Assembly (NCBI GenBank): GCA_002327255.1
Contig: DCUM01000165.1
Span: 40,427-104,426, forward strand
Reading direction: 5' to 3'
Length of the DNA stretch: 64,000 nucleotides
Source: a bacterium UBA2214
GTDB lineage: Bacteria > Zhuqueibacterota > Zhuqueibacteria > Residuimicrobiales > Residuimicrobiaceae
Position numbers and translations under genes: made by a program
The notes under the pieces: generated by a model
What the model saw: only the letters and a program-made list of their open reading frames with translations
The model's database searches: none
What the model was told of the DNA's origin: nothing
Part shown: positions 14,191 to 63,959 of the stretch, one piece after another
How positions within the stretch are numbered: the stretch's first letter is position 1
Layout of the letters: each line of letters opens with the position of its first letter

Positions 14191-14223
14191 AAAAAGCGGG
14201 TGGCCGAGGAGCAGCCACCCGCT
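14191..14223 (-). terminator. Rho-independent terminator after the PorV-like barrel gene
   Basis: Plus strand AAAAAGCGGGTGGCcgaggagcaGCCACCCGC. On the minus strand this is a 9-bp GC stem followed by TTTTT. Confidence 0.55.
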
Positions 14224-14245
14224 GTGATCAGAAAGTCCGTGCAGA

Positions 14246-15286: not shown

Positions 15287-15328
15287 ATTATTAAAGCTCC
15301 TATTTTTTTGTCGTTCATCGCCGGGTTA

Positions 15329-18652: not shown

Positions 18653-18712
18653 AGATGATCAAACCTCCAGTTTTAGAACGTGTAGTCAAAGCCCGTTGCT
18701 GACCACGGTTCC

Positions 18713-34297: not shown

Positions 34298-34301
34298 GGC
34301 T

Positions 34302-36151: not shown

Positions 36152-36152
36152 A

Positions 36153-44381: not shown

Positions 44382-44465
44382 TCCCTGTCTCCTTATCCTG
44401 CTACCATTGATTGTTTTCAAACACGATTCAAAACGATGAACGGGTTTGCCCGTCCGCCCTTCGTC

Positions 44466-49863: not shown

Positions 49864-51347
49864 AGCGTGCCCCCCTCCAACTCCAGCGCAGGCGCCGTTT
49901 TTTTGCCGGCACGCCGCAGCAGGTCGCCCACTTCACGAAACAGGGAACGCTTGATCAGCCACAAGGCGCCCACATAGGCGGCGCCGCAGAGCACGCCGCC
50001 GGCGATGAGATTGAGCAGCATGGCGCCGGGCCACTGTGCATAGATCACAGTCCGCACCGCCAGGGCTACCAGAATCATGACAACACTGGCCACTGCAGCG
50101 GGCCACAACGCCTGAAAAAACTCTCGCATGGTCAGATCCGCCTGACGATTGGTGATGTATTGTATGACCGGGAATGTCAACAGGTATAATCCGGTATAGG
50201 CCGCGGAGGCGCCGACCAGACCGTACCGGCAACCCCAGTAGATGGCGCCGGCAAATGGCACCAGATAGAGCGAATTCCACCAAAACTCGATCTGCGGTTT
50301 GCCGCGCGCTTTCAAAACCGACCCACGAATCGTGCCCACCGATTTGAGCATGGCCATGGGAACCAGTATGATAAGCGGCAGCACCAGCTCTTTCCATTCA
50401 CTGCCCAATACCACCAGGACAAATTCCCGGGCATAGAGCGCCAGTCCCGTCAGAATCGGGAATGTGATCAGGGAGATGTAGCGCATCGAATGCACATATC
50501 CCCATTTGAACGACTTGAGGTCGGACTGCACCGCCGAAAATGCGGGGAAGGTCACGCGCGAGACGATACCGGAGAGGCGCGTCACCGGCAGTTTCACCAG
50601 CTGCATCGCCATGCCATAGACGCCGAGGGCGGAATCGCCGAGAAGCCGGCCGACGATGGTGATATCGGCGTTGGAATTGAGATAAAAAGCGACGTCGTTG
50701 CCGATGACTTTGCTGCTGAAACCGGCCAATTCCCTGAATTCCGGCCAGGCGAAATGGCGTTTGGGTTTGAAACCGCTGTAATGCCAGAACAGGAGCACGG
50801 CGGTCACATCGCGCACCAGCATGGCGATGACGAGGCTCCAAACCCCCTGGCCGCCCAGCGCCAGAGCGATCGCGATGAGGCCATAGACCACGGCGGAGAC
50901 CGTCTCGATGATGCCCAGCTTTTTGAAGGCCATCTCACGCACCAGCAGCGCCTTTTGCACCACGCAAAACGCATCGATGATGAAACCGAGAGCCAGCACG
51001 ATGACGACCGGCTGAATCGCCGGCGTGCGAAAAAAAGAACGCATCGGATAGGATGCCAATACCGAGATAATAAACAGCGTCACGCCGAATGCCAGACTGC
51101 CCCAGAAAAGGGAACTCAGGTGTCCGGCGTGGATGGCTGGTTTTTGCACGATGGCGGTGCCGAGACCGTTATCCGTCACGATTTGAATGGCGATGGTGAT
51201 CAGCGCCGCCATACTGACAAGGCCAAAATCGCTGGTACCGAGCAGGTTGGCGAGGATGATCATCACCACGGAAAGCACCGCCTGCATGGTCATCTTGGCC
51301 ATGCCGGTCCACAGCACCCCCTGCACCGTCTTCTGCTTCAGGCTCAT
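49860..51347 (-). CDS. Second Wzx-type flippase / polysaccharide-biosynthesis (PST) membrane protein
   Basis: 495 aa, 12-14 TM segments, N-terminus QGVLWTGMAKMTMQAVLSVVMIILANLLGTSDFGLVSMAALITIA. Confidence 0.7.
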   Translation of the reverse strand: MSLKQKTVQGVLWTGMAKMTMQAVLSVVMIILANLLGTSDFGLVSMAALITIAIQIVTDNGLGTAIVQKPAIHAGHLSSLFWGSLAFGVTLFIISVLASYPMRSFFRTPAIQPVVIVLALGFIIDAFCVVQKALLVREMAFKKLGIIETVSAVVYGLIAIALALGGQGVWSLVIAMLVRDVTAVLLFWHYSGFKPKRHFAWPEFRELAGFSSKVIGNDVAFYLNSNADITIVGRLLGDSALGVYGMAMQLVKLPVTRLSGIVSRVTFPAFSAVQSDLKSFKWGYVHSMRYISLITFPILTGLALYAREFVLVVLGSEWKELVLPLIILVPMAMLKSVGTIRGSVLKARGKPQIEFWWNSLYLVPFAGAIYWGCRYGLVGASAAYTGLYLLTFPVIQYITNRQADLTMREFFQALWPAAVASVVMILVALAVRTVIYAQWPGAMLLNLIAGGVLCGAAYVGALWLIKRSLFREVGDLLRRAGKKTAPALELEGGTL

Positions 51348-53110
51348 GGCCAGAGCTCCCGCGGCGGGTCGAGGCGTGCGGCGAGGGCGGCTTCAGGCAG
51401 CGCCGGCGCGCCGGCGAGGCGGTAGACGTCCACCCGCCATTTCGATCCCGGAACGGAAGCCAGCCTCTCGTAGCGTTCCGCCACCATGCGGTCGAGAAAA
51501 GCGCGATAGCGGGAAAACTTTTTCTCGGTGTACCCATCCATGATGATGAAAAGCGGCGGCGCCTCCTCAAAATCGCTTTCAAAGTGCGGATCATATTTCA
51601 TAAAGAAAAGCGTCGGATGCGACACCCCGCCCCAGGGCTGCAGTCCGGAGGTATGGGTCCAGATCATGGCGCCGCTGAGGACGGTGTCGCTGCGTTGGCC
51701 CTGCTGCTGCAAAAGTGCCACCACCCGATCGAGTGTCCGCGGCGACCAGCCGCATTCGTATTTGGGCCCGATGACGCTGCCGGAAACCGAAGCCGTCATC
51801 ATCAGCACCGCCAAACCGGCCGCCGTGAGCGGCGCGGTCTCACGCGCAAAGGCGTAGCGGCGGATGAGCAGCACCGCTGCGCTGATCACGACAGCCGCAA
51901 CCACGTGTCCCCACAGCGGCCAGCGCCACTGCCACATCAGGCGCTGCGCCAGGAAGAGCAGGACGAAGAGTCCGCTCACCGTCACAAAACGCTGCAGCAG
52001 ATGCCGGCCCTGCAGCGATCCTCTGATCACCGGAACGGCCAAAATCAGCCAGGCGGGCAGACTCTCCAGGAAATACTGGCTGTAAAAGCCGCGACTCGCC
52101 GACTGAAAAGCATAGGCGAGGAGCAAAATAAAGATCCACAGGGCCAGGAAGAGATAAGCCGGATCTTTCCCGGGTTTGTTTCTCTTGGACAGATAACGTC
52201 CCAGACTCCAGAGAGCGGCTGTCACAATGAAGAAAGAAAAGAGGATGGATTCCCTCCACGCGCGCAGGGTATAACCGACCTCCTGATCCAGAATCCGGAA
52301 TCCTTCACGATCGACAATGCGCATGGCCGCGGGTAGAATCCCGAGGCTGTGGGCCACCCGGTTCCAAACCAGATTCAGCGGATTGAGTTGTGAAAAAAGC
52401 ATCTGCTCGAACGTCAGTGCACCCCCATAAAACCACAGGACCACAGCGCCTACCAGCGCAAACCCCGCGCTGAACACGGCAATTTTTTGCCAGACAAGGC
52501 GTTTGCAAAAGCCCTCCCCAATCCAGAGGCAGAGGACGACGGCGACGGGCAGATAGAGTGTCGATTGACGCACGTAAAAAGCGAGGGCGGCGCTCATCCC
52601 CGCGAGGAGGAGCAAGTCCCATCGCCGCGGCTGCTGCAGCGTCCGTATGAAAAGCCAGGCGCCGACGCAGACGAACAACACCGCCGGCATCTCGGTTTTT
52701 ACCACCGTAGACCAGATGAGGGTGTAGGGCAAAAAAAGATAGATGGCCGCAGCGAGCCAGCCGCTGGCCGCATCGAAGAGCTGCCGGACGATGAGATAGA
52801 TCATCCAGGCGATGGCCAGCGACGCGAAGAGCGGCAGCAGCCTACCGGCTGCGAGACTGGTGCCAAAGGCTTTGACGAAAAGCGCCAGCAGATAGGTATA
52901 GAGCGGCTGCCGTGAGGCATAATCGATGATGGGAACCATCCCCTGCCAGACCAGACGGGCGTCGAGCAGATGCGCGCCTTCGTCCGCGTTGATCCATCGC
53001 ACGGAGAGCAGCGCCAGGCGCAGGAGCAGGGCCAGAGCCAGGGTCACCAGCATCCACAGACCTGACTTTTCGCTCCAGTCGGAGCGTATTTGTTCAAGCC
53101 TGAACTTCAC
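51344..53110 (-). CDS. GT-C-fold membrane glycosyltransferase, PMT/ArnT-like, with a soluble C-terminal domain
   Basis: 588 aa. Loop-1 INADEGAHLLDARLVWQG acidic motif. Roughly 11 TM segments, then a ~200-aa globular tail. Confidence 0.55.
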   Translation of the reverse strand: MKFRLEQIRSDWSEKSGLWMLVTLALALLLRLALLSVRWINADEGAHLLDARLVWQGMVPIIDYASRQPLYTYLLALFVKAFGTSLAAGRLLPLFASLAIAWMIYLIVRQLFDAASGWLAAAIYLFLPYTLIWSTVVKTEMPAVLFVCVGAWLFIRTLQQPRRWDLLLLAGMSAALAFYVRQSTLYLPVAVVLCLWIGEGFCKRLVWQKIAVFSAGFALVGAVVLWFYGGALTFEQMLFSQLNPLNLVWNRVAHSLGILPAAMRIVDREGFRILDQEVGYTLRAWRESILFSFFIVTAALWSLGRYLSKRNKPGKDPAYLFLALWIFILLLAYAFQSASRGFYSQYFLESLPAWLILAVPVIRGSLQGRHLLQRFVTVSGLFVLLFLAQRLMWQWRWPLWGHVVAAVVISAAVLLIRRYAFARETAPLTAAGLAVLMMTASVSGSVIGPKYECGWSPRTLDRVVALLQQQGQRSDTVLSGAMIWTHTSGLQPWGGVSHPTLFFMKYDPHFESDFEEAPPLFIIMDGYTEKKFSRYRAFLDRMVAERYERLASVPGSKWRVDVYRLAGAPALPEAALAARLDPPRELWP

Positions 53111-53853
53111 GATTTTCGCGCCATGCAGAGCAGTGAGAGGCCAAATGGCAAATCGATGAAGCGCATGAGCCCATTCTCGAAATAGAGAATGCCCGTCAAC
53201 AGGGCGTTGAGCGGCGCAGCGATCTCATTGAGATCGGAGGTCCCCTCCTCATGGGGTTTGACACTTCTTTTGCGCAGCAAGCGCACAGCCGCCAGAGCCG
53301 GAAAGAGGACGGTGTTGCGATAGCTGAGCCTGATATCCGTGAAACCGGCACTGTGGAGTTTGCTGCGCATCTCGCGCCGGTTGAAGCGGTGCGCGGTATG
53401 AACCGCGGCATCATGGGAACTCTTGAGCGCATCATAGGCGGGCAAATTGAGAAGAACCAGACCGCCCGGACGCAGGGCGCGATGGATATCCTTGAGGACG
53501 GCCACATCATCGCGGATGCTGCGATGGCAGAGCACATCGAGAGAGAGGATGACATCAAAAGCATTCGCCGCAAAGGGGATTTCATTGATCGAGGCGCGTA
53601 CGAGCCGGTTGAGGCCGCGCTGGCGGCAGCAGACCAATCCATCCGCGGCAAAATCGAATCCGATTCCCGTGATACCCCTTTTTTTCGCAACGTGTTCGAG
53701 AATGCCCCCGGTACCGCATCCGGCATCGAGCAGAGAGGCAGCGGATGAAACGCCGGCCCGGGTCAACATGGTTGTCACCATATGACGAAGACCGTTATAC
53801 CACCAGTAGTGGTCTTCGAGATGATACATGACAGAATATTCTTGTTTTTCCAT
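53107..53853 (-). CDS. Class I SAM-dependent methyltransferase
   Basis: Motif I LLDAGCGTGGI. Post-I acidic residue and motif II VILSLDVLCH. Start set at MEKQEYSVMYH. Confidence 0.75.
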   Translation of the reverse strand: MEKQEYSVMYHLEDHYWWYNGLRHMVTTMLTRAGVSSAASLLDAGCGTGGILEHVAKKRGITGIGFDFAADGLVCCRQRGLNRLVRASINEIPFAANAFDVILSLDVLCHRSIRDDVAVLKDIHRALRPGGLVLLNLPAYDALKSSHDAAVHTAHRFNRREMRSKLHSAGFTDIRLSYRNTVLFPALAAVRLLRKRSVKPHEEGTSDLNEIAAPLNALLTGILYFENGLMRFIDLPFGLSLLCMARKS

Positions 53854-53984
53854 TACTCCTGCCGCTGTTCGCACACTTCCCAACCCGGATAAACCGGAAC
53901 CGTTGCAGGGTGGGTTGGCCGACTTGCGCTCGGCGTTCCCAGGCCAGCTACTTGTTCTCTGGTGCCATCGCTACACGGCACCCT

Positions 53985-54039: not shown

Positions 54040-54094
54040 GCATCTATTGCCATTTTGCAAAAAAAAACCAGAAACTAACCCTCAAACCGGTTTA
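54040..54094 (-). terminator. Candidate weak intrinsic terminator/attenuator at the 3' end of the aminotransferase gene
   Basis: On the minus strand AAACCGG...(15-nt loop containing the TAG stop)...CTGGTTT, followed by T9. The stem is AT-rich, so this is weak. Confidence 0.3.
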
Positions 54095-55175
54095 TCACTT
54101 CAGCCACAAAGCCTACTTCGTCATCACTCAACTCGGGATAAATCGGCAGCGACAGAATCTCCGCAGCGTACTGCTCAGCAAGGGGGAAGGAACCCCTCGG
54201 CAAGCCGAGTTCCTTATAGGCATTTTGAAGATGACAGGGAACCGGATAGTGAATCTGCGTTCCGATGCCGTATTCGGTGAGATGTTTTCGGAGTTTGTCA
54301 CGCTGCGCACAGCGGATCACGTAGAGATGAAAAACGTGATAGACATCGGCCTGCTGCCCGGGCGTGATGATTTTGTCATTCCTGATTTCGCGGTCATAAA
54401 TGGCCGCCATCTGGCGGCGGCGCACATTCCAGGTTTCCAGATAGGGCAGCTGGGCCGAGAGGATGGCGGCTTGCATTTCATCCAGGCGGCTGTTAAATCC
54501 CTTGATCTCATGATAATAACGTTCGAGCTGGCCATAATTCCGCAGCAGCCTGATCTGCTCGGCAAAGCGGTTGTCGCGCGTCACCACCATGCCGGCATCA
54601 CCGAATGCGCCGAGATTTTTGCTGGGATAAAAACTGAAGCATCCGTAGGCGCCGAAGGTTCCGGCTTTGCGGCCTTTGAAGGCGGCACCATGGGCTTGAC
54701 AGGCGTCTTCGATGAGCGCCAATCCATGGCGGTCAGCGATCTCGGTCAACGCCTCGATGGCGCAGAGATTGCCATAGAGATGCACGGGAATGATGGCACG
54801 TGTACGCGGGGTGATGCAGCGCTCCACCAGTTTGACATCCATACAAAATGAAGCGGGATCGATATCCACAAACACCGGCACGCCGCCGGCAAACGAGATG
54901 GCCGAGAGCGTCGGCACCGCGGTGTTGGGCACGGTGATGACTTCGTCGCCCGGCTTGACGCCGGCGGCGACCAGCGCCAGATGCAGGGCTTCGGTACCGG
55001 AGCCAACGCCGATCGCATGCCCAACGCCCAGATATTGCGCAAATTCCGCTTCAAAGCGTTCAAGCTCCTTGCCCAAAATAAACCAGCCGCTGGCGAGTAC
55101 GCGAGCCGCCGCTTTGTCTATATCCGTCTGAATGCTGCGATAATGTCTTCTCAAATCTCCAAATGGAACCCGCAT
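54075..55175 (-). CDS. DegT/DnrJ/EryC1/StrS-family PLP-dependent sugar aminotransferase (ArnB/perosamine-synthase-like)
   Basis: 366 aa. Motifs GWFILGKELERFEAEFAQYLG, AIGVGSGTEAL and the PLP-lysine block FSFYPSKNLGAFGDAG. Confidence 0.85.
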   Translation of the reverse strand: MRVPFGDLRRHYRSIQTDIDKAAARVLASGWFILGKELERFEAEFAQYLGVGHAIGVGSGTEALHLALVAAGVKPGDEVITVPNTAVPTLSAISFAGGVPVFVDIDPASFCMDVKLVERCITPRTRAIIPVHLYGNLCAIEALTEIADRHGLALIEDACQAHGAAFKGRKAGTFGAYGCFSFYPSKNLGAFGDAGMVVTRDNRFAEQIRLLRNYGQLERYYHEIKGFNSRLDEMQAAILSAQLPYLETWNVRRRQMAAIYDREIRNDKIITPGQQADVYHVFHLYVIRCAQRDKLRKHLTEYGIGTQIHYPVPCHLQNAYKELGLPRGSFPLAEQYAAEILSLPIYPELSDDEVGFVAEVINRFEG

Positions 55176-55185
55176 AAAAAAAACC

Positions 55186-56859
55186 TCATTCCGTTCGATT
55201 CAGTTTATCAACCCGATAAATATACGCATAACGTGGCCCGGCCGAGATGGACTCCAGCAGCGTAAATCCCGGCAGCGTTTCGCCCACACCGAGAAAAGCG
55301 ATTGTTTCCAGCCGCCGGTTCTTGTTGACCCATTCCGACCAGGCTGTATGCTGGCTCGCCATGAGATTATAGCTCAACCAGGCCACGTGACTGATGTTCT
55401 GCTGTTTCAGCCAGGGGTGCAATTCCTGCGGCGGCAACTGCGGTGCATCGGTGAGCCGGAAAAAGGCGTCCTGCGGATCCAGCCCGGTATAGTAAGCCAC
55501 TATATTCGGCTGCGACACCAGCAGACGATTTCCTGCGGTGTAATTTTTCTCAAACCACTCTCCCACCAGCCGGAATTCGGCTTTGGCATAGTAGAGTTCA
55601 AAGAGCTCGTTGCGGGTGCGGGAGTTGATATGAAAAGCCAGAAAGATCATCACGCTGACCGCCATAAAAAAAGTCGCCAGACTCTTGACTCTGAATCGTG
55701 GCCAATGAAAAAAGAAAAGCGGTGCCACATAGGCCAGCATCCATACCCAGGAAGGCTGATATTGCGGGTACGGAGAACGGGTGACGATCAGGACATAGAC
55801 GGTAGCGCTCAAAACGCCAATGGCGAGAGCCAGACAGGTTTTCCTGGCCTGGCGACATTTCTGTGACAACCGTGAATGGCGCAGCTGCTCGCGGCCCCAC
55901 CAGCACAATTGAGCGACGCCGTGAACCAGAAATATCAACGCCACCCAGGCGGCCATGACCATATAATCGCTCCCGGAGAAGGGCCATACGACATGCAGGG
56001 CGACAAAGGAGACGAGATAGATGATCAATGCCAGCGTGCTGCGCGCATCGCGGCGCCACAGCGCGAGAAAACCCGCCACGAACAGGAGCGCGCCGAGCAG
56101 GACCCAAACTTTAAACCAGGAGACCGGTAAAAAACCGAACAGTTCGGTTAAAAACATGTAGACAAAATGGAAGTTGAGCGAATAACCGGAAAAATAATCG
56201 CCATAGTTGCTGCCCGGCTCACCGGAACCCTGGAAAAACGTCCACATCACGATGAACAAGGATGAAACGATGGCCAACAGCAAGGAGCGTTTTTTATCGC
56301 GCCCAAAGAAGAAATCAGCGACAAAAAAAGCGGCGATGGCCAGGATGCCCTCATAGCGCACCAGCGTGGCCAGGAAAGCGATGAGATAGGCGCGGCGGTC
56401 GCCACGCAGGTAGCGTTCAAAAGCCCACAGGATCAAAACGGTCAACACGATTTCCGGCTTCGGCTTCAGGGCCATGCGCAGTGTGGAGACATGAAACGCC
56501 CAGATCCACACCACCCAGGGGGCGCTGGAGCGCGCGTAGCGGCGCGTAATGCGCCACAGCAGCCACAGTGCCAGCAAAGCGGACAGGACGCCCAGCGTCT
56601 CCGCTGCATACAGCTCCGCATGGTCGCCGGGCATCATGGTCGAAATGAATGCGATCAGCATGGGATAGAGCGGCGGCCGTTTGAAGTGATCCGGCCACTC
56701 CATGTTGCGCAGGCTGTTTGCCTTTTCGGCATAATCAAAAAAGTCGCTGTCCGGCACCAGGAAATGATTCACCTGCAACACGATTTGCACTGCAAAAACC
56801 GCAAACAGAATCAGCAGAAACCAGGTGGCGGGAACGTTTTTATCAATTTTTCCGAGCAT
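55186..56859 (-). CDS. GT-C-like polytopic membrane protein (fifth PMT/ArnT-like paralog)
   Basis: 557 aa. First loop NHFLVPDSDFFDYAEKANSL (acidic DxD-like motif), more than 10 TM segments, soluble C-terminal domain. Confidence 0.45.
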   Translation of the reverse strand: MLGKIDKNVPATWFLLILFAVFAVQIVLQVNHFLVPDSDFFDYAEKANSLRNMEWPDHFKRPPLYPMLIAFISTMMPGDHAELYAAETLGVLSALLALWLLWRITRRYARSSAPWVVWIWAFHVSTLRMALKPKPEIVLTVLILWAFERYLRGDRRAYLIAFLATLVRYEGILAIAAFFVADFFFGRDKKRSLLLAIVSSLFIVMWTFFQGSGEPGSNYGDYFSGYSLNFHFVYMFLTELFGFLPVSWFKVWVLLGALLFVAGFLALWRRDARSTLALIIYLVSFVALHVVWPFSGSDYMVMAAWVALIFLVHGVAQLCWWGREQLRHSRLSQKCRQARKTCLALAIGVLSATVYVLIVTRSPYPQYQPSWVWMLAYVAPLFFFHWPRFRVKSLATFFMAVSVMIFLAFHINSRTRNELFELYYAKAEFRLVGEWFEKNYTAGNRLLVSQPNIVAYYTGLDPQDAFFRLTDAPQLPPQELHPWLKQQNISHVAWLSYNLMASQHTAWSEWVNKNRRLETIAFLGVGETLPGFTLLESISAGPRYAYIYRVDKLNRTE

Positions 56860-56948
56860 CTCAAATAACTCTTGAGCTAGAGAACTAGCGCCGTGTCAAT
56901 CAACGAACCCTCCCCCCTGCGTCGTCATCAGAACACACGCTGCAACCA

Positions 56949-57956
56949 TCACGACCAATAGTGTGCTTTGTGCTGTTTGTAAAAGGCAACCGTCTTTTCG
57001 AGACCGGTTTTCATGTCGGTGCGATAGCGCCACCCCAATACCGCGCGAATCTTGCGGTAATCGGCGTAAAAATCGCCGATATCGATGCGCTTCTTCTCGG
57101 CCGGAAAGGGCACCATCTCGAAATTGCCGCCCCCGGCCGTTTGCAGCAGCAGTTTGACGAAATCAGCCAGCATCATGGGCTCATCACCGCCGAGGTTGTA
57201 GATGCTGCCGTTGCAATCATCGAAGGCGGCAGCCAGACAGAAAGCATCGACCACGTCATCCACATAATTAAAATCGCGAATCTGCTTGCCATCGCCGAAG
57301 AGGCGGATGGTTTCGCCCTCGATGGCCTGACGGATGAAGACGCTGATAAAACCCTGGCGATTGTGTTTCATCAGTTGCCGCGGCCCATAGGTATTGGTCA
57401 GCCGCAGCGAAGTGGCACGGATGCCGTAGACGTTGTTGTAGAGGATGTGATACCACTCGCCGGCCATCTTGTTGATGCCATTGACGTCGGTCGGGTGCTG
57501 CGGATGTTTTTCATCCACCGGCAGATAGTCCGGTTTGCCGTACTGCTGCCGGGTGCCGGCAAAGACGATCTTCACATCCGGATTGTTGTGGCGGCAGGCT
57601 TCCAGCATGGAGAGCTGCGAGCGGCAGTTGATCTCGAGATCGGTGTAGGGATCCTCCATGCTGTCGATGTGACTCACCTGTCCGGCCAGATTGAAGATGA
57701 AATCCTGATCTTTGACCAGATAATTCATGCTGTATTGATCACGGATATCCGCGATGTTGATCTGTACCTGCTTTTCGACCCCCGCAACGTTGAAGAGATT
57801 GCCCCCATACTGCGGAAGCAACGAATCCACGATCAATACCCGGGCATCATACGATACCAGCCGGTGCGCCAGATTGCTGCCGATGAAACCCAGGCCGCCG
57901 GTGATCAGGCACTTCTTGCCCCTGAACGTTTTCGGCAGTTGCTCACGCTTTGGCAT
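56949..57956 (-). CDS. NAD-dependent sugar-nucleotide epimerase/dehydratase (SDR; UDP-glucuronate decarboxylase / 4-epimerase-like)
   Basis: Rossmann motif CLITGGLGFIGSNLAHRLV. Catalytic region VNGINKMAGE (YxxxK). Confidence 0.8.
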   Translation of the reverse strand: MPKREQLPKTFRGKKCLITGGLGFIGSNLAHRLVSYDARVLIVDSLLPQYGGNLFNVAGVEKQVQINIADIRDQYSMNYLVKDQDFIFNLAGQVSHIDSMEDPYTDLEINCRSQLSMLEACRHNNPDVKIVFAGTRQQYGKPDYLPVDEKHPQHPTDVNGINKMAGEWYHILYNNVYGIRATSLRLTNTYGPRQLMKHNRQGFISVFIRQAIEGETIRLFGDGKQIRDFNYVDDVVDAFCLAAAFDDCNGSIYNLGGDEPMMLADFVKLLLQTAGGGNFEMVPFPAEKKRIDIGDFYADYRKIRAVLGWRYRTDMKTGLEKTVAFYKQHKAHYWS

Positions 57957-58668
57957 TACGGCCCTCCCCGCGTACGACCAGCCGCAACCAGAGTTTTGAA
58001 AAATCCCGGGCGACGTGATAGAGACGGCTAAAGTTGAAGAACTGCGACTTGCCGGAAGAGCGGAAAAAATGGTTGACCCCGACCTCGGCGAATTTGCTTC
58101 CCTGACGGCTGATCTTGTGAATCATCTCCACGCAGATGGTGCCACTGTTGGAGGTCAATTCGATGGTGTCGAAAATCTTGCGGCGCATGAGCCGGAAGTC
58201 GCAATCCACATCGGTGATCGGCAGGGCAAAGAGCAGTTTGGCGGTGTACTGATAGATCTTGCCGAGCACGACGCGATAAAACGGGTCGTGGCGTTTGATC
58301 TTGAAGCCGTTGACAACATCGACGCCATCGTTCATGGCAGCGGCGAGGAGTAACAACTGGCGCACATCGTACTGCGCATCGCCATCGGTGTAAAAAATAA
58401 AATCCTTGCGCGCTTCCTTGAAACCGGTGCGGAGTGCGCCGCCGTAGCCGCGATTTTGTTCATGGTGAATGACGCGAATCTGCGGAAATCGTGACTCCAA
58501 AAAAGTGAGGATTTCCTGGGTCTTTTCTTCGCTGCCGTCATCCACCAGGATCACTTCATAGTCGTCGGTAATTTTCTCCGCAGCGGTGATGGCCTGGGCC
58601 GCCATCGAGGTGATGGTGCCCCAATCATTGTAGACCGGGAAAAATATCGACAGAGAAGACAATTTCAT
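57943..58668 (-). CDS. GT2 glycosyltransferase (polyprenyl-phosphate HexNAc synthase-like)
   Basis: Start at MKLSSLSIFFPVYNDW. DxD block ILVDDGSEEKT...YTDGDAQYD. The start overlaps the stop of the downstream deacetylase gene (ATGA-type coupling). Confidence 0.75.
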   Translation of the reverse strand: MKLSSLSIFFPVYNDWGTITSMAAQAITAAEKITDDYEVILVDDGSEEKTQEILTFLESRFPQIRVIHHEQNRGYGGALRTGFKEARKDFIFYTDGDAQYDVRQLLLLAAAMNDGVDVVNGFKIKRHDPFYRVVLGKIYQYTAKLLFALPITDVDCDFRLMRRKIFDTIELTSNSGTICVEMIHKISRQGSKFAEVGVNHFFRSSGKSQFFNFSRLYHVARDFSKLWLRLVVRGEGRNAKA

Positions 58669-58672
58669 GGCG

Positions 58673-59578
58673 CTATCGGGAAGAGTGTTCATCGATTTCT
58701 CGCTTGGTGTTAAGGTGCGCACGGATGGCGATCCGTTTGATGCCGGCTTGTTGCACGGCGCCTTTTAGCGTTTCATCACAGAGCAGGCGCTGCTCCTCAA
58801 ATCTATGCCATTCTATACTGCCTTTGGCGCCAGTTTGCGGATGGAATGCCGGATGCACCATCCATTCGTTGACGCCGCTGCCCAGGGAGTGCAGCAAGTC
58901 CATGAAGGTTCGCTGTTTGTCCCGGCTGGCATACCAGACCATGCCGCGAAAATGGCCGGCGTGCGCAAAAGAACGATAATAGCGCCGGCTGGCCCAGAGG
59001 GCCATCAGGCCCTGCTGCAGGGCAGCGCCAAACCCGCGGCCCCCCCGGCAGCGGCCTTCACTGCGGAGCGAAAGCTGTCGCACCCACCTCAGACCATATT
59101 CGCGGGCCAGCGGCGCCACAACGGCGGCGACGCGCGGCAAGAGATGAATGTGATGGTGGCTGTCGAGATGAGCGACCTGGAGTCCCGACGTCAGCAACCG
59201 CTCCATCTGCGCCCGGAATTCTCTTTCCATCGCACCCTGAGTCACCCGCCCGGCGAGAAGGCGCTGCGTCATGATCCACTTGCCCGGAAATAGCCCATTC
59301 CCGTTGGTCATCCTGGAGGTATCCGCAGCGTGTGCAAGCGCTCCGCCCGATGTGAAGTTGAGATGCAAGCCGACGTCCCATCCTTCACAGCATGCCCATG
59401 CACAAGCCTGTTCAAAAGCCGGGCCATTGGCCATCATGGACGTGCTGGTCACCATGCCGGTCTGATAACAGCGTTTGATGCCTTCGTTGACGGCCTGAGA
59501 CGCGCCGAGATCATCGGCGTGCACCACCAGGAGCGCTTCGCCGCCGCGCCGGAAGGCCTCCGCCACGGGCGCCTCCAT
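58673..59578 (-). CDS. YdjC/ChbG/HpnK/NaxD-family carbohydrate deacetylase
   Basis: N-terminal LLVVHADDLGASQAVNEGIKRCYQTGMVTSTSMMANG is the YdjC-superfamily metal-binding signature (D-D...H). LDSHHHIH provides the second His cluster. Confidence 0.75.
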   Translation of the reverse strand: MEAPVAEAFRRGGEALLVVHADDLGASQAVNEGIKRCYQTGMVTSTSMMANGPAFEQACAWACCEGWDVGLHLNFTSGGALAHAADTSRMTNGNGLFPGKWIMTQRLLAGRVTQGAMEREFRAQMERLLTSGLQVAHLDSHHHIHLLPRVAAVVAPLAREYGLRWVRQLSLRSEGRCRGGRGFGAALQQGLMALWASRRYYRSFAHAGHFRGMVWYASRDKQRTFMDLLHSLGSGVNEWMVHPAFHPQTGAKGSIEWHRFEEQRLLCDETLKGAVQQAGIKRIAIRAHLNTKREIDEHSSR

Positions 59579-60909
59579 CAGATGTCTTTTTCCCTGGGCG
59601 TCTTTTTTGCGCCCATCTGGGCGGTAAAAAAATCGTGCAAATCATCCAGGCATTTCGCGGCATCGAACACAGCAGCGACGCGCTTGCGCGCCGCTTTGCC
59701 GATTCTGGCGGCTTTGTGCGGCGTTTCCGCCAGCTCGCGGATCACCCGGGCCAAGGCTTCGGGGCTGGTCTCCTCGAGGAGGATTCCGCTTTTGCCATCC
59801 TCGATCAGTTCGGGGATGCCCGAAACCGGCGTTGATATCACCGGGACTTCCATGGCCATGGCTTCGGCGATGACATTGGGAATGCCGTCGCGATTGCCGG
59901 TTTCGTCGATGATGCAGGGCAGCACAAAAAGTGCGGCCTCGCGGTAGCGCTCGATCACTTCACTGGGCGGCATGTAGCCGCTGATCTCGACGACATCCAT
60001 GAGATGGTTGAGGCGGATGAAGAGTTCCAGCCGCGGCCGTTCCGGGCCGTCACCGATGATCAGACATTTGAAATCAAACTGTTGATCCCGCAAAATTTTG
60101 CAGGCGTGCAGCAGGACCGCCATGCCCTTTTTGGGCACCAGCCTGCCGACGGAGAGAATGGCGGGCACGGATGTTCCCTGCCTGCGTCCGGGCGTCATGG
60201 CGCGCCAGTCGGCGCCATGGTAATTGACGAAAATTTTCTCCGCATCCAGTTCCGGAAAATGCTCGAGGAGATAACGTTTGTTGTACCGGGTACAGGTGAC
60301 AATGAATTGGGCGCGCGCCAGTTTCTTGTCGAAAATGACTTGGGGGGTGAAGATATCATAGGCGTGGGCCGTAAAACTGAAAGGGACATCGATCAGCATG
60401 GCCGCCAGCATGGCCAGGCTCGCCGCGGAATCGGCAAACTGGGCGTGAATTATGCGGTAGCCTTTGCCGAGCAACCGGAAGGCGGTCGGCACGATGAGCA
60501 CAAAATGGAGCAGCACATTCTGGCGCTGCTCCTTATCCAACTCGCGTTTATGGACAGCGACTTGCCAGAGTGAGCCGATCAACGCGGCGCCGCGCGTACG
60601 GTTGCGCCAGGCGAACCAAAAGGTGCGCCACCAGGTCCGCGGATGACGAAACAGGAAATAAAAATGCTTTTTAACCAGATCATGGGCGCGAACCGATGGA
60701 AGAATGTAGTGCGTACCCTCGATCAGCTCCGGCACTTCTTTATTCTCCAGTCCCTGCGGCGGACGGTTCAACGCATAGGTGTCCAGGGTCAGTCCGCGCG
60801 CCCGCAAACCGATCACTTCATTGATGATGAAGCGTTCGGAGAGGCCCGGGAAAAAATTGAGAAAGAGTGCGACGCGCTGTCCGGTGCGTTTTTTCCTTGC
60901 AGCACACAT
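59578..60909 (-). CDS. GT4 glycosyltransferase
   Basis: 443 aa GT-B with LPCIIDETGNRDGIPNVIAEAMAMEVPVISTPVSGIPE. Confidence 0.75.
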   Translation of the reverse strand: MCAARKKRTGQRVALFLNFFPGLSERFIINEVIGLRARGLTLDTYALNRPPQGLENKEVPELIEGTHYILPSVRAHDLVKKHFYFLFRHPRTWWRTFWFAWRNRTRGAALIGSLWQVAVHKRELDKEQRQNVLLHFVLIVPTAFRLLGKGYRIIHAQFADSAASLAMLAAMLIDVPFSFTAHAYDIFTPQVIFDKKLARAQFIVTCTRYNKRYLLEHFPELDAEKIFVNYHGADWRAMTPGRRQGTSVPAILSVGRLVPKKGMAVLLHACKILRDQQFDFKCLIIGDGPERPRLELFIRLNHLMDVVEISGYMPPSEVIERYREAALFVLPCIIDETGNRDGIPNVIAEAMAMEVPVISTPVSGIPELIEDGKSGILLEETSPEALARVIRELAETPHKAARIGKAARKRVAAVFDAAKCLDDLHDFFTAQMGAKKTPREKDI

Positions 60910-61928: not shown

Positions 61929-61929
61929 G

Positions 61930-62988
61930 TCAACGCATTTCCTCGATAATATGTGCCAATGATTCGCCAATCCGCTGCAGGGTGCAGTGTTCCCTGAAGA
62001 CGCGATATCCTCCAGCCGCGATACGCTCGCGCAGTGCCGCATCCTCTCTGAGTTTGAGGATGGCTTCCGCCAACGCCGCCGGATTGGCGCGATCGATCAA
62101 ATAGACGCTTTCCCCGTGTTGCAGCAGTTCCTGCACCGGCTCATTGCGCGCTGTAATTAAAGGTTTTGCCATGGCGATGGACTCCACCACCTTGTTGGTC
62201 GTCACGCGCAAAACCCGGTCGTTATCGCCAAAAATGCCGAGGCACAAATCCGCCTGCGCGATGCGGTTCGCCAATTCGGCGTATGAGACCGGATCATAAA
62301 ACCTCACATTGGTCACATCCAATGATTTTGCCAGTCTTTGATCCTCGGCCCAGGTGATGCCGCGGCCGATGACGCGAAACTCGAGATCCTTTTCAGCGCG
62401 CAACAGGTGCGCCGCCTCGAGGATATACTTGATGCCATGGAACGGAGCATATTCACCATGGAAATGAACCAGAAATTTATCCGTATCCTTGCTGACGACG
62501 CGGGGATAAATGATGGTATCATCCACCGCCAGAAAAATGCGGCGCATCCGCGCCGGTTCCACGGCAAAGGTACGGCAGAAAAAATCGATGTGCGCCTGCG
62601 TCTCGAGGACGACGACATCCGACATGCGGTAGGAGAGCCGGTCGCTCCAGCCATAAAGACGCGCTTTGAGGCTTCCGGGTCTGGCTATGCCGCGATCATA
62701 AACCATGGTATCCAGCGTGGTGATGTACATATCGAACAGCAGCGGCTTGCGGGTCACCAGACGCACAAACGGCAACAGTATCTGACCATAAAAGCCGACG
62801 ATGACCAGGTCGCAGTGCCGGGCCTGACGCAGGACCCGCCACACCAGTCCCGGATAATGCCGGAAGGATCGATCCGGAGGAAAACAACCGATGACTTCAT
62901 ATCCCTGGCGTTCCAGGGCAGCACAGAGAATATGAGTGCGTGAATAGGAGCGTTCGCGGCCAGCCACGAAGAGAATGCGCTTTTTCAA
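61930..62988 (-). CDS. GT4-like (GT-B) glycosyltransferase
   Basis: 352 aa. [18 protein letters not shown]-terminus. C-terminal [23 protein letters not shown]. Confidence 0.65.
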
Positions 62989-63959
62989 ACCCTGGCACCC
63001 GGCTCTTTCTCACCCTTCTCCAGTTTTAGATCGAGCTTGCGAATGCGATAAAGGGTGCTTTCGATCAAACGACGGTTAAATCCAATCAGATCGGCGAGGA
63101 GGCCGATGATGAAAACCTGAAAACCAACGATGAGCAGGACGGCGGCAAGAATCAGGGACTGGATGTGCCCCATGCCGCCCGTGGTGATGTAAAAAAAGAG
63201 AAAGCGCAAACCGATGAGAAAGCCGGCGCCAAAGACGATCGCGCCGATGTAGGAAAACATCTTCAGGGGCTCATACATGGAATAGATGCGCGTGATGGTG
63301 GTCATGGAACGTTTGATATAATTCCAGTTGCCGCTGAAGAGACGCGATTCGCGCAGTTTGGCGTTGGTACGCACCGGCACATGGGCGATGGCGAGATTCT
63401 TTTTGCCCGCCTGGATGATGGTTTCGAGCGTATAGGTAAAACGGGACACCACATTCATCTGCAGGGCGGCTTCGCGGCTCAGTGCCCTGAATCCACTGGT
63501 TGCATCCGGAATCGCGGTGTCGGAAACCTGGCGCACCACCCAGCTGCCGAGACGCTGCAGCCGTTTTTTCGTCCAGGAAAAATGGTCAATGCCGACAGTA
63601 TTGCGGTCACCGACCACCAGCTCGGCTTCACCGCACAGGATCGGCCGCACCAGCTGGCGGATGTCTTCGCCGCAGTACTGATTGTCCGCATCGGTATTGA
63701 CGATGATATCGGCGCCGAGGCGCAGGGAAGCGTCCAGTCCCACCATGAAGCCGTTGGCCAGTCCCTTGTTCTTGGTGACACGGACGATGTGGTTCACGCC
63801 GTGGCGGCGGGCCACTTCCGCCGTGCCGTCACTGCTGCCGTCATCGATGATGAGGAATTCGATGGTATCGATGCCATCGATCTGCCGGGGCAGATCGGCC
63901 AGGGTCAGCGGCAGGGTCTCCGCTTCGTTGTAACAGGGTATTTGGATGATCAGTTTCAC
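62985..63959 (-). CDS. GT2 polyprenyl-phosphate glycosyltransferase (DPM1/GtrB/ArnC-like) with C-terminal TM helices
   Basis: [12 protein letters not shown]...[10 protein letters not shown]...NTDADNQY (DxD), plus two C-terminal TM helices ([15 protein letters not shown]...[20 protein letters not shown]) typical of lipid-phosphate sugar synthases. Confidence 0.8.

What the first reader, a model, noticed from the sequence alone, without database searches (positions are those of the whole stretch)
57943..59578. GT2 sugar-lipid synthase coupled to a YdjC/NaxD-type deacetylase: likely source of a polyprenyl-P-aminosugar donor
The GT2 start at 58668 overlaps the stop of the downstream deacetylase gene. 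The deacetylase carries the LLVVHADDLG...N.GI...SMMANG signature.

The same pairing underlies two known pathways. In Francisella, FlmF2 and NaxD make Und-P-GalN, which the ArnT-like FlmK transfers to lipid A. In hopanoid biosynthesis, HpnI and HpnK make a GlcN-hopanoid. Here the locus also contains five or six ArnT-like GT-C enzymes that could use such a lipid-linked aminosugar. The implied product is cationic aminosugar decoration of a surface glycan or lipid.
Basis: partly seen in the sequence, partly recalled or inferred. Interest (0 to 1): 0.7.

Follow-up and report, generated by a model that had tools for sequence, protein, structure and literature searches.

The report
Lipid-linked aminosugar module: deacetylase plus GT2
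Inside a large surface-sugar gene cluster of an uncultured bacterium, a sugar deacetylase gene sits four bases upstream of a gene for a lipid-carrier sugar-loading enzyme, and comparison with hundreds of other genomes suggests the two prepare a positively charged sugar for the cell surface, which is a variant of a known route and not a new kind of system.

Summary
Both genes are real. The YdjC deacetylase (58673-59578, minus) has an intact Asp/His site and a confident YdjC fold. The 241-aa GT2 (57943-58668, minus) has no membrane helices, yet its best structural matches are all polyprenyl-phosphate glycosyltransferases (ArnC, DPMS, GtrB). The genes do not overlap: a 4-nt gap separates them, and YdjC is the upstream gene.

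The core idea is supported by comparison, not by biochemistry.
- Among about 30%-identical YdjC relatives, 39 of 63 have an ArnC-like GT2 directly downstream, some with a GT-C and an MprF-like membrane gene.
- The nearest outgroup of this YdjC clade is a single-ORF GT2-YdjC fusion. More than 100 such fusion clusters exist, and in three of three contexts examined the fusion gene lies next to a PMT_2 GT-C.

- This GT2 family (54-90% identical across about ten phyla) normally lacks YdjC (74 of 80 loci).
- Its conserved partners are the next genes downstream: an atypical SDR (NxxxK) and a DegT aminotransferase.
- YdjC is a fast-evolving add-on specific to the KSB1-like lineage.

The sugar is therefore probably not plain HexNAc, and transamination supplies at least one amine. 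Verdict: new variant of the NaxD/FlmF2/FlmK kind, moderate interest.

The parts
58673..59578 (-). YdjC-family sugar N-deacetylase (301 aa), cytoplasmic, with no TM helix and no signal peptide
   Evidence: Pfam PF04794, E 1.2e-57. Invariant D22, D23, H72, H137, H141, H143, E238 and H242 across 37 homologues and within the KSB1-like clade. AF2 pLDDT 90.8. Foldseek top hits are CmCBDA 8jqe, EF3048 2i5i, ChbG 7vi8 and TTHB029 2e67, with TM 0.69-0.82. No TM helix predicted.
57943..58668 (-). Short GT2 (241 aa) of the polyprenyl-phosphate glycosyltransferase class, lacking TM helices, called 'GT2s' here
   Evidence: Pfam PF00535. Best sequence matches in the PDB are ArnC at 3e-20, then DPMS and GtrB. 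AF2 pLDDT 89.9. Foldseek ranks 1-24 are all ArnC, DPMS or GtrB, with TMq up to 0.80. No TM helix; amphipathic C-terminal helix at 213-232. Start at ATG 58668.
56949..57956 (-). Extended SDR ('SDR2', 335 aa), GalE-like, with NxxxK in place of the catalytic YxxxK. Conserved partner of GT2s.
   Evidence: Pfam Epimerase, E 1.5e-50. Best PDB matches are GalE 4zrm and 7ys8 and tyvelose 2-epimerase. Directly downstream of GT2s in 47 of 66 loci. Asn replaces the catalytic Tyr in 52 of 52 orthologues matched by the motif. Overlaps the GT2s stop by 14 nt.
55186..56859 (-). Polytopic membrane protein of 557 aa ('GTC557'), probably a GT-C transferase that uses the lipid-linked sugar
   Evidence: About 10 predicted TM helices. 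Invariant PxSDFFD and KRPP motifs in the first loop region. Only a weak profile match to the window's PMT_2 protein (hhalign E 1.2e-3, probability 19.5%). No Pfam or PDB match. Contiguous with GT2s-SDR2 in the KSB1-like loci not cut short at that point, except L094.
54075..55175 (-). DegT/DnrJ/EryC1 sugar aminotransferase, conserved partner of GT2s
   Evidence: Pfam, E 7e-125. Best PDB matches are 3-aminotransferases (7b0d 420 bits, DesV, QdtB, WbpE), well above ArnB at 180-203 bits. Found within 2.6 kb downstream of GT2s in 48 of 66 loci.
53107..53883 (-). Class I SAM methyltransferase, a possible modifier of the same sugar
   Evidence: Pfam Methyltransf_11/25. Only generic PDB matches. A homologue lies within 4 kb of GT2s in about a dozen of the 80 loci from other lineages.
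59578..60909 (-). GT4 glycosyltransferase (EpsE/WcaL-like) directly upstream of YdjC, the rival candidate partner
   Evidence: Pfam Glycos_transf_1. NCBIfam EpsE 171 bits, below cutoff. Its stop shares 1 nt with the YdjC start. GT4-YdjC adjacency is conserved in all KSB1-like loci except L002.
62985..63959 (-). GT2 with two C-terminal TM helices ('GT2L', AglJ/ArnC/GtrB-type), a second polyprenyl-phosphate sugar synthase and alternative partner of YdjC
   Evidence: NCBIfam AglJ 125 bits and ArnC 64 bits, both below cutoff. TM helices at 232-295. 89% identical in L002, where YdjC is kept but GT2s is absent.
51344..53110 (-). PMT_2 (ArnT-like GT-C) protein. Three more lie at 47042-48691, 45801-47045 and 31542-33341, and a DUF2142 protein at 30127-31692.
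   Evidence: Pfam PF13231, E 1e-15 to 1e-17; DUF2142, E 5e-68.

Best explanation
The block YdjC (58673-59578), GT2s (57943-58668), SDR2 (56949-57956), GTC557 (55186-56859) and DegT (54075-55175) is a lipid-carrier sugar-decoration module within a large Wzx/Wzy-type surface-glycan locus of a KSB1-like (FCB group) bacterium.

Proposed steps:
1. Inferred: SDR2 and DegT make a nucleotide-activated amino or acetamido-amino sugar.
2. Fold and family shown, substrate inferred: GT2s, a peripheral TM-less member of the ArnC/DPMS/GtrB class, transfers that sugar to polyprenyl phosphate on the cytoplasmic face.
3. Active site and fold shown, substrate inferred: YdjC, a metal-dependent de-N-acetylase, removes an N-acetyl group from the lipid-linked sugar, as NaxD does with Und-P-GalNAc.
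4. Inferred: after flipping, the adjacent GT-C-like protein, or one of the four PMT_2 proteins, transfers the now more cationic sugar to the glycan or another envelope acceptor.

YdjC is an accessory step added in the KSB1-like lineage to a much more widespread GT2s-SDR2-DegT pathway.

My confidence by step:
- YdjC is an active sugar deacetylase: about 0.85.
- GT2s loads polyprenyl phosphate: about 0.75.
- YdjC acts on a polyprenyl-P-linked sugar: about 0.6.
- That sugar is the GT2s product specifically: about 0.45.
For: YdjC:
- Pfam hit, invariant catalytic and metal residues, confident YdjC fold.

GT2s:
- ArnC, DPMS and GtrB are the best sequence matches and the best structural matches.

Gene packing:
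- 1-nt overlap, 4-nt gap and 14-nt overlap along GT4-YdjC-GT2s-SDR2.

Conservation in the KSB1-like lineage:
- YdjC lies directly upstream of GT2s in the window, L005, L006, L010, L011, L012, L013 and L094.
- In L015 and L036 only GTC557 lies between them.

Family level:
- Of 63 YdjC relatives with downstream sequence, 39 have a GT2 directly downstream, against 1 with a GT4.
- Ten of ten of those GT2s tested are full-length ArnC/PgfS-like proteins with two TM helices.
- L117, L143, L149 and L158 read GT-C, LPG_synthase_TM, YdjC, GT2, with Pfam confirming PMT_2 and LPG_synthase_TM in L117 and L143.

Fusion evidence:
- The nearest outgroup of the KSB1-like YdjC clade is a single ORF joining a TM-less GT2 to YdjC (L097).
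- Its GT2 half matches GT2s best among the window's GT2s.
- Of the 120 best-listed homologue clusters, at least 110 carry both PF00535 and PF04794, with identity down to 33%. 108 of 112 have no predicted TM helix.
- In three of three contexts examined the fusion gene lies next to a PMT_2/PMT GT-C.

Published precedent:
- NaxD, a YdjC-family enzyme, deacetylates Und-P-GalNAc before transfer to lipid A (PMC11279074, PMC12330716).
- FlmF2 and FlmK are the GT2 and the ArnT-like enzyme of that pathway (PMC2233673).
Against: - The GT2s family does not generally need YdjC. Only 6 of 80 loci have a YdjC within 10 kb, and all six are the closest relatives of the window.
- The conserved partners of GT2s are SDR2 and DegT, so an amine can arise without deacetylation.
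- No N-acyltransferase or formyltransferase is encoded at 30-64 kb. An Arn-style protect/deprotect cycle is therefore not evident, and whether the GT2s sugar carries an N-acetyl group at all is unknown.
- YdjC is the most diverged gene of the locus: 37-48% identity where neighbours show 60-90%.
- L002 keeps YdjC but lacks GT2s, SDR2, GTC557 and the GT4.
- The KSB1-like YdjC clade lies outside the large GT2-paired clade in an unbootstrapped NJ tree.
- GTC557 could not be placed in any GT-C family.
- No NaxD or LgmC sequence was available for direct comparison.
Confidence: 0.55

Rival explanations
1. YdjC works with the GT4 encoded directly upstream (59578-60909). The GT4 adds GlcNAc or GalNAc to a lipid-linked oligosaccharide or glycolipid, and YdjC deacetylates that residue. 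This is the same logic as PIG-A/PIG-L, MshA/MshB or BshA/BshB. The downstream GT2 is then only a neighbour.
For: The GT4 stop and YdjC start share 1 nt. GT4-YdjC adjacency holds in every KSB1-like locus except L002. In L015 and L036 YdjC is adjacent to the GT4 but not to GT2s. A separate YdjC clade (L003, L090) sits in an operon of ATP-grasp/methyltransferase, YdjC and GT4.
Against: L002 keeps YdjC without this GT4. Among YdjC relatives a GT4 lies directly downstream in 1 locus and upstream in 2, against 39 and 4 for GT2. The fusion proteins join YdjC to a GT2, never to a GT4, among the 120 listed hits. L022 has a 40%-identical GT4 homologue plus the GT2s cassette and no YdjC.
Confidence: 0.15
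2. YdjC is NaxD-like, but its synthase partner is the TM-bearing GT2L (62985-63959) working with PMT_2 (51344-53110). GT2s, SDR2, GTC557 and DegT form a separate cassette inserted next to YdjC.
For: In L002 the order is GT2L, GT1, SDR1, YdjC, DegT, PMT_2, with GT2s, SDR2 and GTC557 absent and YdjC catalytically intact. The usual partner of YdjC relatives is an ArnC-like GT2 with two TM helices, which is the architecture of GT2L.
Against: GT2L lies four genes away from YdjC. GT2L-PMT_2 sets occur without YdjC in Acidobacteriota loci. The fusion's GT2 half is TM-less and matches GT2s better than GT2L, 46 against 33 bits. The argument rests on a single MAG contig.
Confidence: 0.15
3. There is no dedicated coupling. 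YdjC is a loosely constrained accessory deacetylase acting on a soluble or nucleotide-linked N-acetyl sugar, or on the finished polymer. Its position beside GT2s is incidental in a crowded glycan locus.
For: YdjC is the fastest-evolving gene of the locus. Adjacency to some GT2 has about a 1-in-5 chance in this locus. The characterised family members ChbG and CmCBDA act on soluble chitobiose.
Against: Catalytic residues are invariant within the clade. The position is conserved across about ten related loci. YdjC-GT2 pairs and fusions are widespread. YdjC has no signal peptide, so it cannot act on an exported polymer. No sugar-uptake or catabolic genes lie nearby.
Confidence: 0.1

Closest known systems
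Francisella and Acinetobacter NaxD with FlmF2 (GT2) and FlmK (ArnT-like GT-C); Bordetella LgmA/B/C is the GlcN analogue (the LgmA and LgmC roles are from my own knowledge, LgmB from PMC11401268)
   Same: A YdjC-fold deacetylase is encoded directly upstream of an ArnC-class GT2, with a GT-C transferase nearby. The Francisella locus tags are consecutive: flmF2 is FTN_0545 and flmK is FTN_0546 (PMC4688374), and naxD is FTN_0544 (my own knowledge). The proposed chemistry is the same: polyprenyl-P-HexNAc to polyprenyl-P-HexN, then periplasmic transfer (PMC11279074, PMC2233673).
   Different: The GT2 here has no TM helices and belongs to a different, highly conserved family tied to an SDR and an aminotransferase. 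The setting is a Wzx/Wzy glycan locus with many GT-Cs, so the acceptor is probably not lipid A. Orthology to NaxD could not be tested. The YdjC is only about 30% identical to the ArnC-paired YdjCs.
Arn pathway (ArnB aminotransferase, ArnC GT2, ArnD deformylase, ArnT GT-C) for Und-P-L-Ara4N
   Same: It combines an aminotransferase, an SDR-type step, an ArnC-fold GT2, a de-N-acylase acting after lipid loading and a GT-C. ArnC is the best structural match of GT2s.
   Different: No formyltransferase or acetyltransferase is present. The deacylase is YdjC-fold, not CE4 (ArnD). The DegT resembles 3-aminotransferases more than ArnB. The SDR is GalE-like with NxxxK and is not an ArnA-type decarboxylase. 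GT2s scores 82 bits against the ArnC cutoff of 529.
Mycobacterial and corynebacterial GalN pathway: Rv3634c epimerase, PpgS (short GT2) with Rv3632, and Rv3779 GT-C
   Same: A short TM-less polyprenyl-P-HexNAc synthase, a GalE-like SDR and a GT-C. A deacetylation step is required there, and its enzyme is still unidentified (PMC9671496).
   Different: GT2s is not a PpgS equivalog (47 bits against a cutoff of 370). No Rv3632/GtrA-like small partner lies next to GT2s. The window's module also includes a DegT aminotransferase.
HpnI/HpnK (hopanoid GlcN) and ChbG (chitobiose deacetylase)
   Same: The same YdjC fold and catalytic residues.
   Different: Both NCBIfam models score about 134 bits, below their cutoffs of 232.6 and 227. 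No hopanoid or chitobiose-PTS family appeared in any Pfam scan of the window. The GT2 partners of related YdjCs are ArnC-like and gave no HpnI match.

Membership tests
YdjC/ChbG carbohydrate deacetylase superfamily (PF04794) | Profile match above the curated cutoff | tested here: met
   196.3 bits against a cutoff of 29.7, covering 265 of 266 profile positions.
YdjC/ChbG carbohydrate deacetylase superfamily (PF04794) | YdjC fold | tested here: met
   AF2 pLDDT 90.8. Foldseek top 7 hits are all YdjC structures (8jqe, 2i5i, 7vi8, 2e67), with TM 0.69-0.82.
YdjC/ChbG carbohydrate deacetylase superfamily (PF04794) | Conserved Asp-Asp and His residues of the metal and catalytic site | tested here: met
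   D22, D23, H72, H137, H141, H143 and H242 are invariant in 37 sequences and in the 8 KSB1-like sequences. Metal-site geometry was not measured on the model.
NaxD/LgmC-type polyprenyl-P-HexNAc deacetylase | Encoded with an ArnC-class polyprenyl-phosphate GT2 | tested here: met
   A 4-nt gap separates it from GT2s. GT2s's best structural matches are ArnC, DPMS and GtrB. Caveat: GT2s lacks TM helices, and its family usually has no YdjC.
NaxD/LgmC-type polyprenyl-P-HexNAc deacetylase | ArnT-like GT-C transferase in the same locus | tested here: met
   Four PMT_2 proteins lie in the locus. The nearest candidate, GTC557, is itself unclassified.
NaxD/LgmC-type polyprenyl-P-HexNAc deacetylase | Sequence orthology to NaxD or LgmC | not tested
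   No NaxD or LgmC sequence or model was available. The afdb50 library was not installed and the primary paper is not held.
NaxD/LgmC-type polyprenyl-P-HexNAc deacetylase | Deacetylates Und-P-HexNAc | not testable with these tools
   Requires an enzyme assay or lipid LC-MS.
HpnK (hopanoid-associated) | TIGR03473 score above cutoff and hopanoid gene context | tested here: not met
   133.7 bits against a cutoff of 232.6. No HpnI, HpnJ or SHC family appeared in any Pfam scan of the window.
ChbG chitin-disaccharide deacetylase | NF002559 score above cutoff and chb PTS operon context | tested here: not met
   134 bits against a cutoff of 227. The context is glycan biosynthesis, not catabolism.
Polyprenyl-phosphate glycosyltransferases (ArnC/GtrB/DPMS class of GT2) | GT-A catalytic domain whose closest relatives are this class | tested here: met
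   PDB phmmer gives ArnC 3e-20, DPMS 2.7e-15 and GtrB 8e-11. Foldseek ranks 1-24 are all of this class.
Polyprenyl-phosphate glycosyltransferases (ArnC/GtrB/DPMS class of GT2) | C-terminal transmembrane helices anchoring the enzyme | tested here: not met
   No TM helix was predicted in GT2s, only an amphipathic helix at 213-232. By the model lengths (226 and 213 positions), the PpgS and haloarchaeal dolichyl-phosphate hexose transferase families are similarly short. Human DPM1 is another short member (my own knowledge).
ArnC (Und-P-Ara4FN transferase) equivalog | NF007986 score above cutoff | tested here: not met
   82 bits against a cutoff of 529.
PpgS (polyprenyl-P-GalNAc synthase) equivalog | NF058614 score above cutoff | tested here: not met
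   47.4 bits against a cutoff of 370.
GT-C glycosyltransferases (for 55186-56859) | Profile or fold match to a GT-C family | tested here: inconclusive
   No Pfam hit even at E 10. No PDB hit with a profile. hhalign against the window's PMT_2 gives E 1.2e-3 at probability 19.5%. It has about 10 TM helices and invariant SDFFD and KRPP motifs.

The most novel reading that the evidence does not exclude
In the KSB1-like lineage, a NaxD-type deacetylase may have been grafted onto the widespread and apparently uncharacterised GT2s-SDR2(NxxxK)-DegT pathway. The lipid-linked sugar would then carry one amine from transamination and a second from de-N-acetylation. The result would be a polyprenyl-P-diamino sugar used by a new, unclassified GT-C family (GTC557) to add a doubly cationic decoration to a surface glycan. 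A related possibility is that the atypical SDR and the DegT act on the lipid-linked sugar rather than on the nucleotide sugar, in the manner of DprE1/DprE2.
Probability: 0.2. Interest if true: 0.65.

Novelty: new variant of a known kind. Interest (0 to 1): 0.45.

Why it matters
Cationic aminosugar decoration of envelope glycans controls surface charge, resistance to cationic peptides and phage recognition. So far it is understood mainly for lipid A in a few proteobacteria.

This locus and its relatives show three things.
- The combination of YdjC deacetylase, polyprenyl-P GT2 and GT-C is far more widespread than the NaxD and Lgm examples. It occurs as gene pairs, as more than 100 clusters of GT2-YdjC fusion proteins, and as GT-C-adjacent two-gene modules.
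- TM-less GT2s take part in it.
- A very conserved GT2-SDR(NxxxK)-aminotransferase triad across about ten phyla remains uncharacterised.

YdjC enzymes are also a candidate class for the still-unidentified deacetylase of the mycobacterial GalN pathway (PMC9671496).

Tried and rejected
- Start/stop overlap of the two genes: rejected. The gap is 4 nt.
- HpnK or ChbG membership: rejected. Scores are below cutoff and the context is wrong.
- Processive soluble GT2: rejected. Structural matches are polyprenyl-P GTs.
- YdjC as a decaying gene, suggested by 37-48% identity among 60-90% neighbours: rejected. All catalytic residues are invariant within the clade.
- An Arn-style N-acylation/deacylation cycle: no acyltransferase or formyltransferase was found at 30-64 kb.
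- Phylogenetic placement to choose a partner: an NJ tree puts the KSB1-like YdjCs in their own clade. It is informative only in that the sister group is the fusion, and it has no bootstrap.
- Classifying GTC557 with Pfam at E 10, a PDB profile search and hhalign: inconclusive.
- Identifying the sugar from SDR2, DegT and the methyltransferase: only class-level hints, namely GalE-like, 3-aminotransferase-like and a generic methyltransferase.
- A replacement deacetylase in L022: the 311-aa ORF there is another GT2.
- Literature search for the GT2-SDR-DegT triad: nothing relevant was found. PDB code 7B0D is not in the library.
- The NaxD primary paper is not held and the afdb50 fold library is unavailable, so NaxD itself could not be compared.

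Full report
**What is in the sequence**

The span 57943-59578 holds two minus-strand ORFs. The first, 58673-59578 (301 aa), is a YdjC-family protein. Its Pfam PF04794 hit has E 1.2e-57 and 196 bits, and it carries the quoted LLVVHADDLG...NEGI...SMMANG signature. The second, 57943-58722, is a GT2 (PF00535, E 1.1e-29).

- The YdjC stop TAG lies at 58675-58673, followed by CGCC, then the ATG at 58668. That is a 4-nt gap, not an overlap.
- An independent JGI gene call on an identical 2.2-kb contig gives the same 241-aa GT2, and homologue N-termini agree with that start.
- YdjC is the upstream gene.
- Packing is tight throughout. The upstream GT4 stop shares 1 nt with the YdjC start, and the GT2 overlaps the next gene by 14 nt.

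**The setting**

Everything from about 30 kb to the window end is on the minus strand and forms one glycan-biosynthesis locus. In transcription order it reads:
- GT2 with two TM helices ('GT2L', 62985-63959)
- GT4-like (61930-62988)
- SDR1 (60927-62042)
- GT4 (59578-60909)
- YdjC
- short GT2 ('GT2s')
- SDR2 (56949-57956)
- a 557-aa polytopic protein ('GTC557', 55186-56859)
- DegT aminotransferase (54075-55175)
- methyltransferase
- PMT_2, Wzx, GT4, PMT_2, PMT_2, Wzy_C, carbamoyltransferase, Wzx
- three GT4s, two short GT2s, DUF2304, MBOAT, a GDSL-like protein, PMT_2, DUF2142

No N-acyltransferase or formyltransferase is present.

The first 30 kb carries type IX secretion markers (PorV, Por_Secre_tail), a TonB-dependent receptor and housekeeping genes. 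The closest named relatives of several genes are candidate division KSB1 MAGs. The source is therefore probably a KSB1-like, FCB-group diderm.

**The deacetylase**

- In a 37-sequence alignment, D22, D23, H72, H137, H141, H143, E238 and H242 are invariant. They are also invariant within the 8-member KSB1-like subfamily.
- The AlphaFold model is confident (pLDDT 90.8).
- The seven best PDB matches are all YdjC structures: CmCBDA with Mn2+, EF3048, ChbG and TTHB029, with TM 0.69-0.82.
- The protein has no TM helix and no signal peptide, so it should act in the cytoplasm.
- It is not an HpnK or ChbG equivalog. Both models score about 134 bits against cutoffs of 232.6 and 227.
- It is a divergent member. 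Only two database clusters exceed 35% identity, at 98% and 48%.

**The GT2**

- By sequence, the best solved relatives are ArnC (3e-20), Pyrococcus DPMS and GtrB.
- By structure (pLDDT 89.9), Foldseek ranks 1-24 are all ArnC, DPMS or GtrB. Processive and soluble GT2s rank lower.
- It lacks the C-terminal TM helices of those enzymes and ends in an amphipathic helix.
- It falls far below the equivalog cutoffs for ArnC and PpgS.

**What travels with the GT2**

GT2s belongs to a very conserved and abundant family. The top 120 database clusters are 56-100% identical.

A scan of 185,579 species genomes returned 80 loci at 54-90% identity. They come from KSB1, Calditrichota, Latescibacteria, Chloroflexota, Acidobacteriota, Hydrogenedentota, Sumerlaeota, WOR-3, Acidimicrobiia and others.

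Of the 66 loci with at least 2.2 kb of downstream sequence:

| Arrangement | Loci |
|---|---|
| SDR2 orthologue directly downstream of GT2s | 47 |
| DegT orthologue within 2.6 kb downstream | 48 |
| Full GT2s-SDR2-DegT triad | 39 |
| GT2s directly followed by DegT | 9 |

A profile search found YdjC within 10 kb in only 6 of the 80 loci. All six are the window's closest relatives: L010-L013, L015 and L036.

The general partners of GT2s are therefore the SDR and the aminotransferase. YdjC is an addition specific to this lineage.

Two details bear on the sugar.
- DegT resembles 3-aminotransferases (7b0d, DesV, QdtB, WbpE) more than ArnB.
- SDR2 is GalE-like, but all 52 orthologues matched by the motif have NxxxK in place of the catalytic YxxxK. 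SDR1 keeps the Tyr.

**How YdjC behaves within the lineage**

Related loci are syntenic, and YdjC is always the most diverged gene.

| Compared locus | YdjC identity | Neighbouring genes' identity |
|---|---|---|
| L002 | 48% | 62-89% |
| L005 | 37% | GT2s and SDR2 81% |
| L010 | 39% | GT2s 90% |

- YdjC lies directly upstream of GT2s in the window, L005, L006, L010, L011, L012, L013 and L094.
- In L015 and L036, GTC557 lies between them.
- L002 keeps an apparently active YdjC but lacks the GT4, GT2s, SDR2 and GTC557.
- L022, L020 and L007-L009 have the GT2s cassette without YdjC.

These patterns keep two rival partners alive: the upstream GT4 and the TM-bearing GT2L.

**What travels with YdjC in general**

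A metagenome scan seeded with the KSB1-like YdjC alignment returned 80 loci with about 30%-identical YdjCs.
- Of 63 loci with downstream sequence, 39 have a GT2 directly downstream and 4 have one directly upstream. A GT4 lies downstream in 1 and upstream in 2.
- The partner GT2s are 314-440 aa, mostly with two C-terminal TM helices.
- Ten of ten tested match the full ArnC model at 160-213 bits and gave no HpnI match.
- Thirteen of 55 loci have an LPG_synthase_TM (MprF-like) gene directly upstream.
- L117, L143, L149 and L158 read GT-C, LPG_synthase_TM, YdjC, GT2. Pfam confirmed PMT_2 and LPG_synthase_TM in L117 and L143.

This is the gene order of Francisella naxD-flmF2-flmK. NaxD is published as the YdjC-family enzyme that deacetylates Und-P-GalNAc (PMC11279074, PMC12330716), and FlmF2 and FlmK are the GT2 and the ArnT-like enzyme (PMC2233673).

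**Fusion evidence**

In an NJ tree without bootstrap, the KSB1-like YdjCs form their own clade, and their sister is L096/L097.
- L097 is a single 550-aa ORF: a TM-less GT2 domain followed by a YdjC domain that is 33% identical to the window's YdjC. It lies directly after a PMT_2 gene.
- Its GT2 half matches GT2s best among the window's GT2s: 46 bits against 37, 33 and 25.
- A database search with it listed the 120 best homologue clusters. At least 110 of them are about 530-560 aa and carry both PF00535 and PF04794, with identity down to 33%. They come from several phyla.
- 108 of 112 of these proteins have no predicted TM helix.
- One hit is a GT2-PMT_2 fusion.
- In three of three contexts inspected (L097, L173/L174 and L175) the fusion gene abuts a PMT_2/PMT GT-C gene.

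This is the strongest evidence here that a TM-less GT2 of this class, a YdjC deacetylase and a GT-C work as one pathway.

**Synthesis**

The most likely mechanism is as follows.
1. SDR2 and DegT make a nucleotide amino or acetamido-amino sugar.
2. GT2s loads it onto polyprenyl phosphate.
3. YdjC removes an N-acetyl group from the lipid-linked sugar.
4. GTC557, or one of the PMT_2 proteins, transfers it to an acceptor outside the membrane.

What is shown: the folds, the intact active sites, the gene packing, the conserved neighbourhoods and the fusions. What is inferred: every substrate, the lipid acceptor, the order of steps, and that YdjC uses the GT2s product and not that of GT2L or the GT4.

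I put about 0.6 on YdjC acting on a polyprenyl-P-sugar, and about 0.45 on that sugar being the GT2s product.

**Novelty and interest**

This is a new variant of the NaxD/FlmF2/FlmK (Lgm, Arn-like) kind. It differs in four ways:
- the synthase has no TM helices;
- it is coupled to a transamination branch with an atypical SDR;
- the candidate GT-C is unclassified;
- it sits in a Wzx/Wzy glycan locus in an uncultured phylum.

It is not categorically new. Interest is moderate. The by-products may deserve as much attention as the flagged pair: the widespread GT2-YdjC fusions next to GT-C genes, and the uncharacterised GT2-SDR(NxxxK)-DegT triad.

Noticed in passing
window 56949-57956 (minus); orthologues in L010-L089: The SDR directly downstream of GT2s has Asn where extended SDRs have the catalytic Tyr (PTDVNGINK in place of YxxxK). 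This holds in all 52 orthologues matched by the motif, from many phyla. The paralogue SDR1 (60927-62042) keeps the Tyr. The NAD-binding GxxGxxG motif, the Thr and the Lys are retained.
   Followed up: partly
window 54075-58668; loci L010-L089: GT2s, SDR2 and DegT form a strongly conserved three-gene unit (54-90%, 54-86% and 44-72% identity). It is complete in 39 of the 66 loci with enough downstream sequence, from about ten phyla including Chloroflexota, Acidobacteriota and Acidimicrobiia. A class I methyltransferase often accompanies it. One literature search for such a module found nothing relevant.
   Followed up: partly
L097:7176-8828; proteins P0203-P0314; L173-L175: Single-ORF fusions of a TM-less GT2 and a YdjC domain are widespread: at least 110 clusters, with identity down to 33%. 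In three of three contexts examined the fusion gene lies directly next to a PMT_2/PMT GT-C gene. P0318 is a GT2-PMT_2 fusion of 863 aa.
   Followed up: partly
L117:5378-9994, L143:5309-10033 (also L149, L158): Soil-metagenome operons read PMT_2 GT-C, LPG_synthase_TM (MprF-like, a possible flippase), YdjC, ArnC-like GT2. In L117 and L143 they are followed by DUF6807 and GFO/IDH/MocA genes, with a UDP-sugar dehydrogenase gene also nearby. This looks like a complete NaxD/Lgm-like module outside the proteobacterial pathogens.
   Followed up: partly
L003:6325-9940, L090:4322-7928, L091:4331-6861: A separate YdjC clade (Syntrophales-like MAGs) sits in an operon of an ATP-grasp/methyltransferase fusion (about 560 aa) and YdjC, followed by a GT4 in L003 and L090. 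The logic of GlcNAc transfer, deacetylation and ligation recalls mycothiol or bacillithiol synthesis.
   Followed up: no
L002 (GCA_963169875.1), locus 4853-20650: The closest syntenic relative (neighbouring genes 62-89% identical) lacks the GT4, GT2s, SDR2, GTC557 and the methyltransferase, but keeps a 48%-identical YdjC between SDR1 and DegT. This suggests gain or loss of GT2s-SDR2-GTC557 as a cassette.
   Followed up: partly
window 55186-56859 (minus): A 557-aa protein with about 10 TM helices and no Pfam, NCBIfam or PDB match. It has invariant PxSDFFD and KRPP motifs and homologues (33-49% identity) in KSB1- and Calditrichota-like loci, in most of them directly next to GT2s-SDR2. It may be an undescribed GT-C family.
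   Followed up: partly
window 35738-36190 (minus): A DUF2304 small membrane protein lies directly downstream of another short GT2 (36153-36878). It may be a membrane partner for a TM-less polyprenyl-P GT2, comparable to Rv3632 with PpgS.
   Followed up: no
window 33338-35741 and 42612-44420 (minus): An MBOAT gene with a GDSL/DUF1574-like gene, and a carbamoyltransferase, all within the same locus. The glycan is probably also O-acylated and carbamoylated.
   Followed up: no
window 5273-6610 and 7043-7699 (minus): A myo-inositol-1-phosphate synthase and a CDP-alcohol phosphatidyltransferase lie about 430 nt apart. This hints at inositol phospholipid synthesis in this bacterium.
   Followed up: no
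window 15329-18652 (minus): A 1107-aa ORF with no Pfam match, between a PorV-like gene and a TonB-dependent receptor-like gene.
   Followed up: no
L007-L009, locus 16521-16759: In loci labelled Deferribacteres, which read Wzy, GT2s, SDR2, DegT, PMT and have no YdjC, a CE4 (Polysacc_deac_1, the ArnD family) gene lies about 7.7 kb downstream. It could be a non-homologous replacement for the deacylase step.
   Followed up: no
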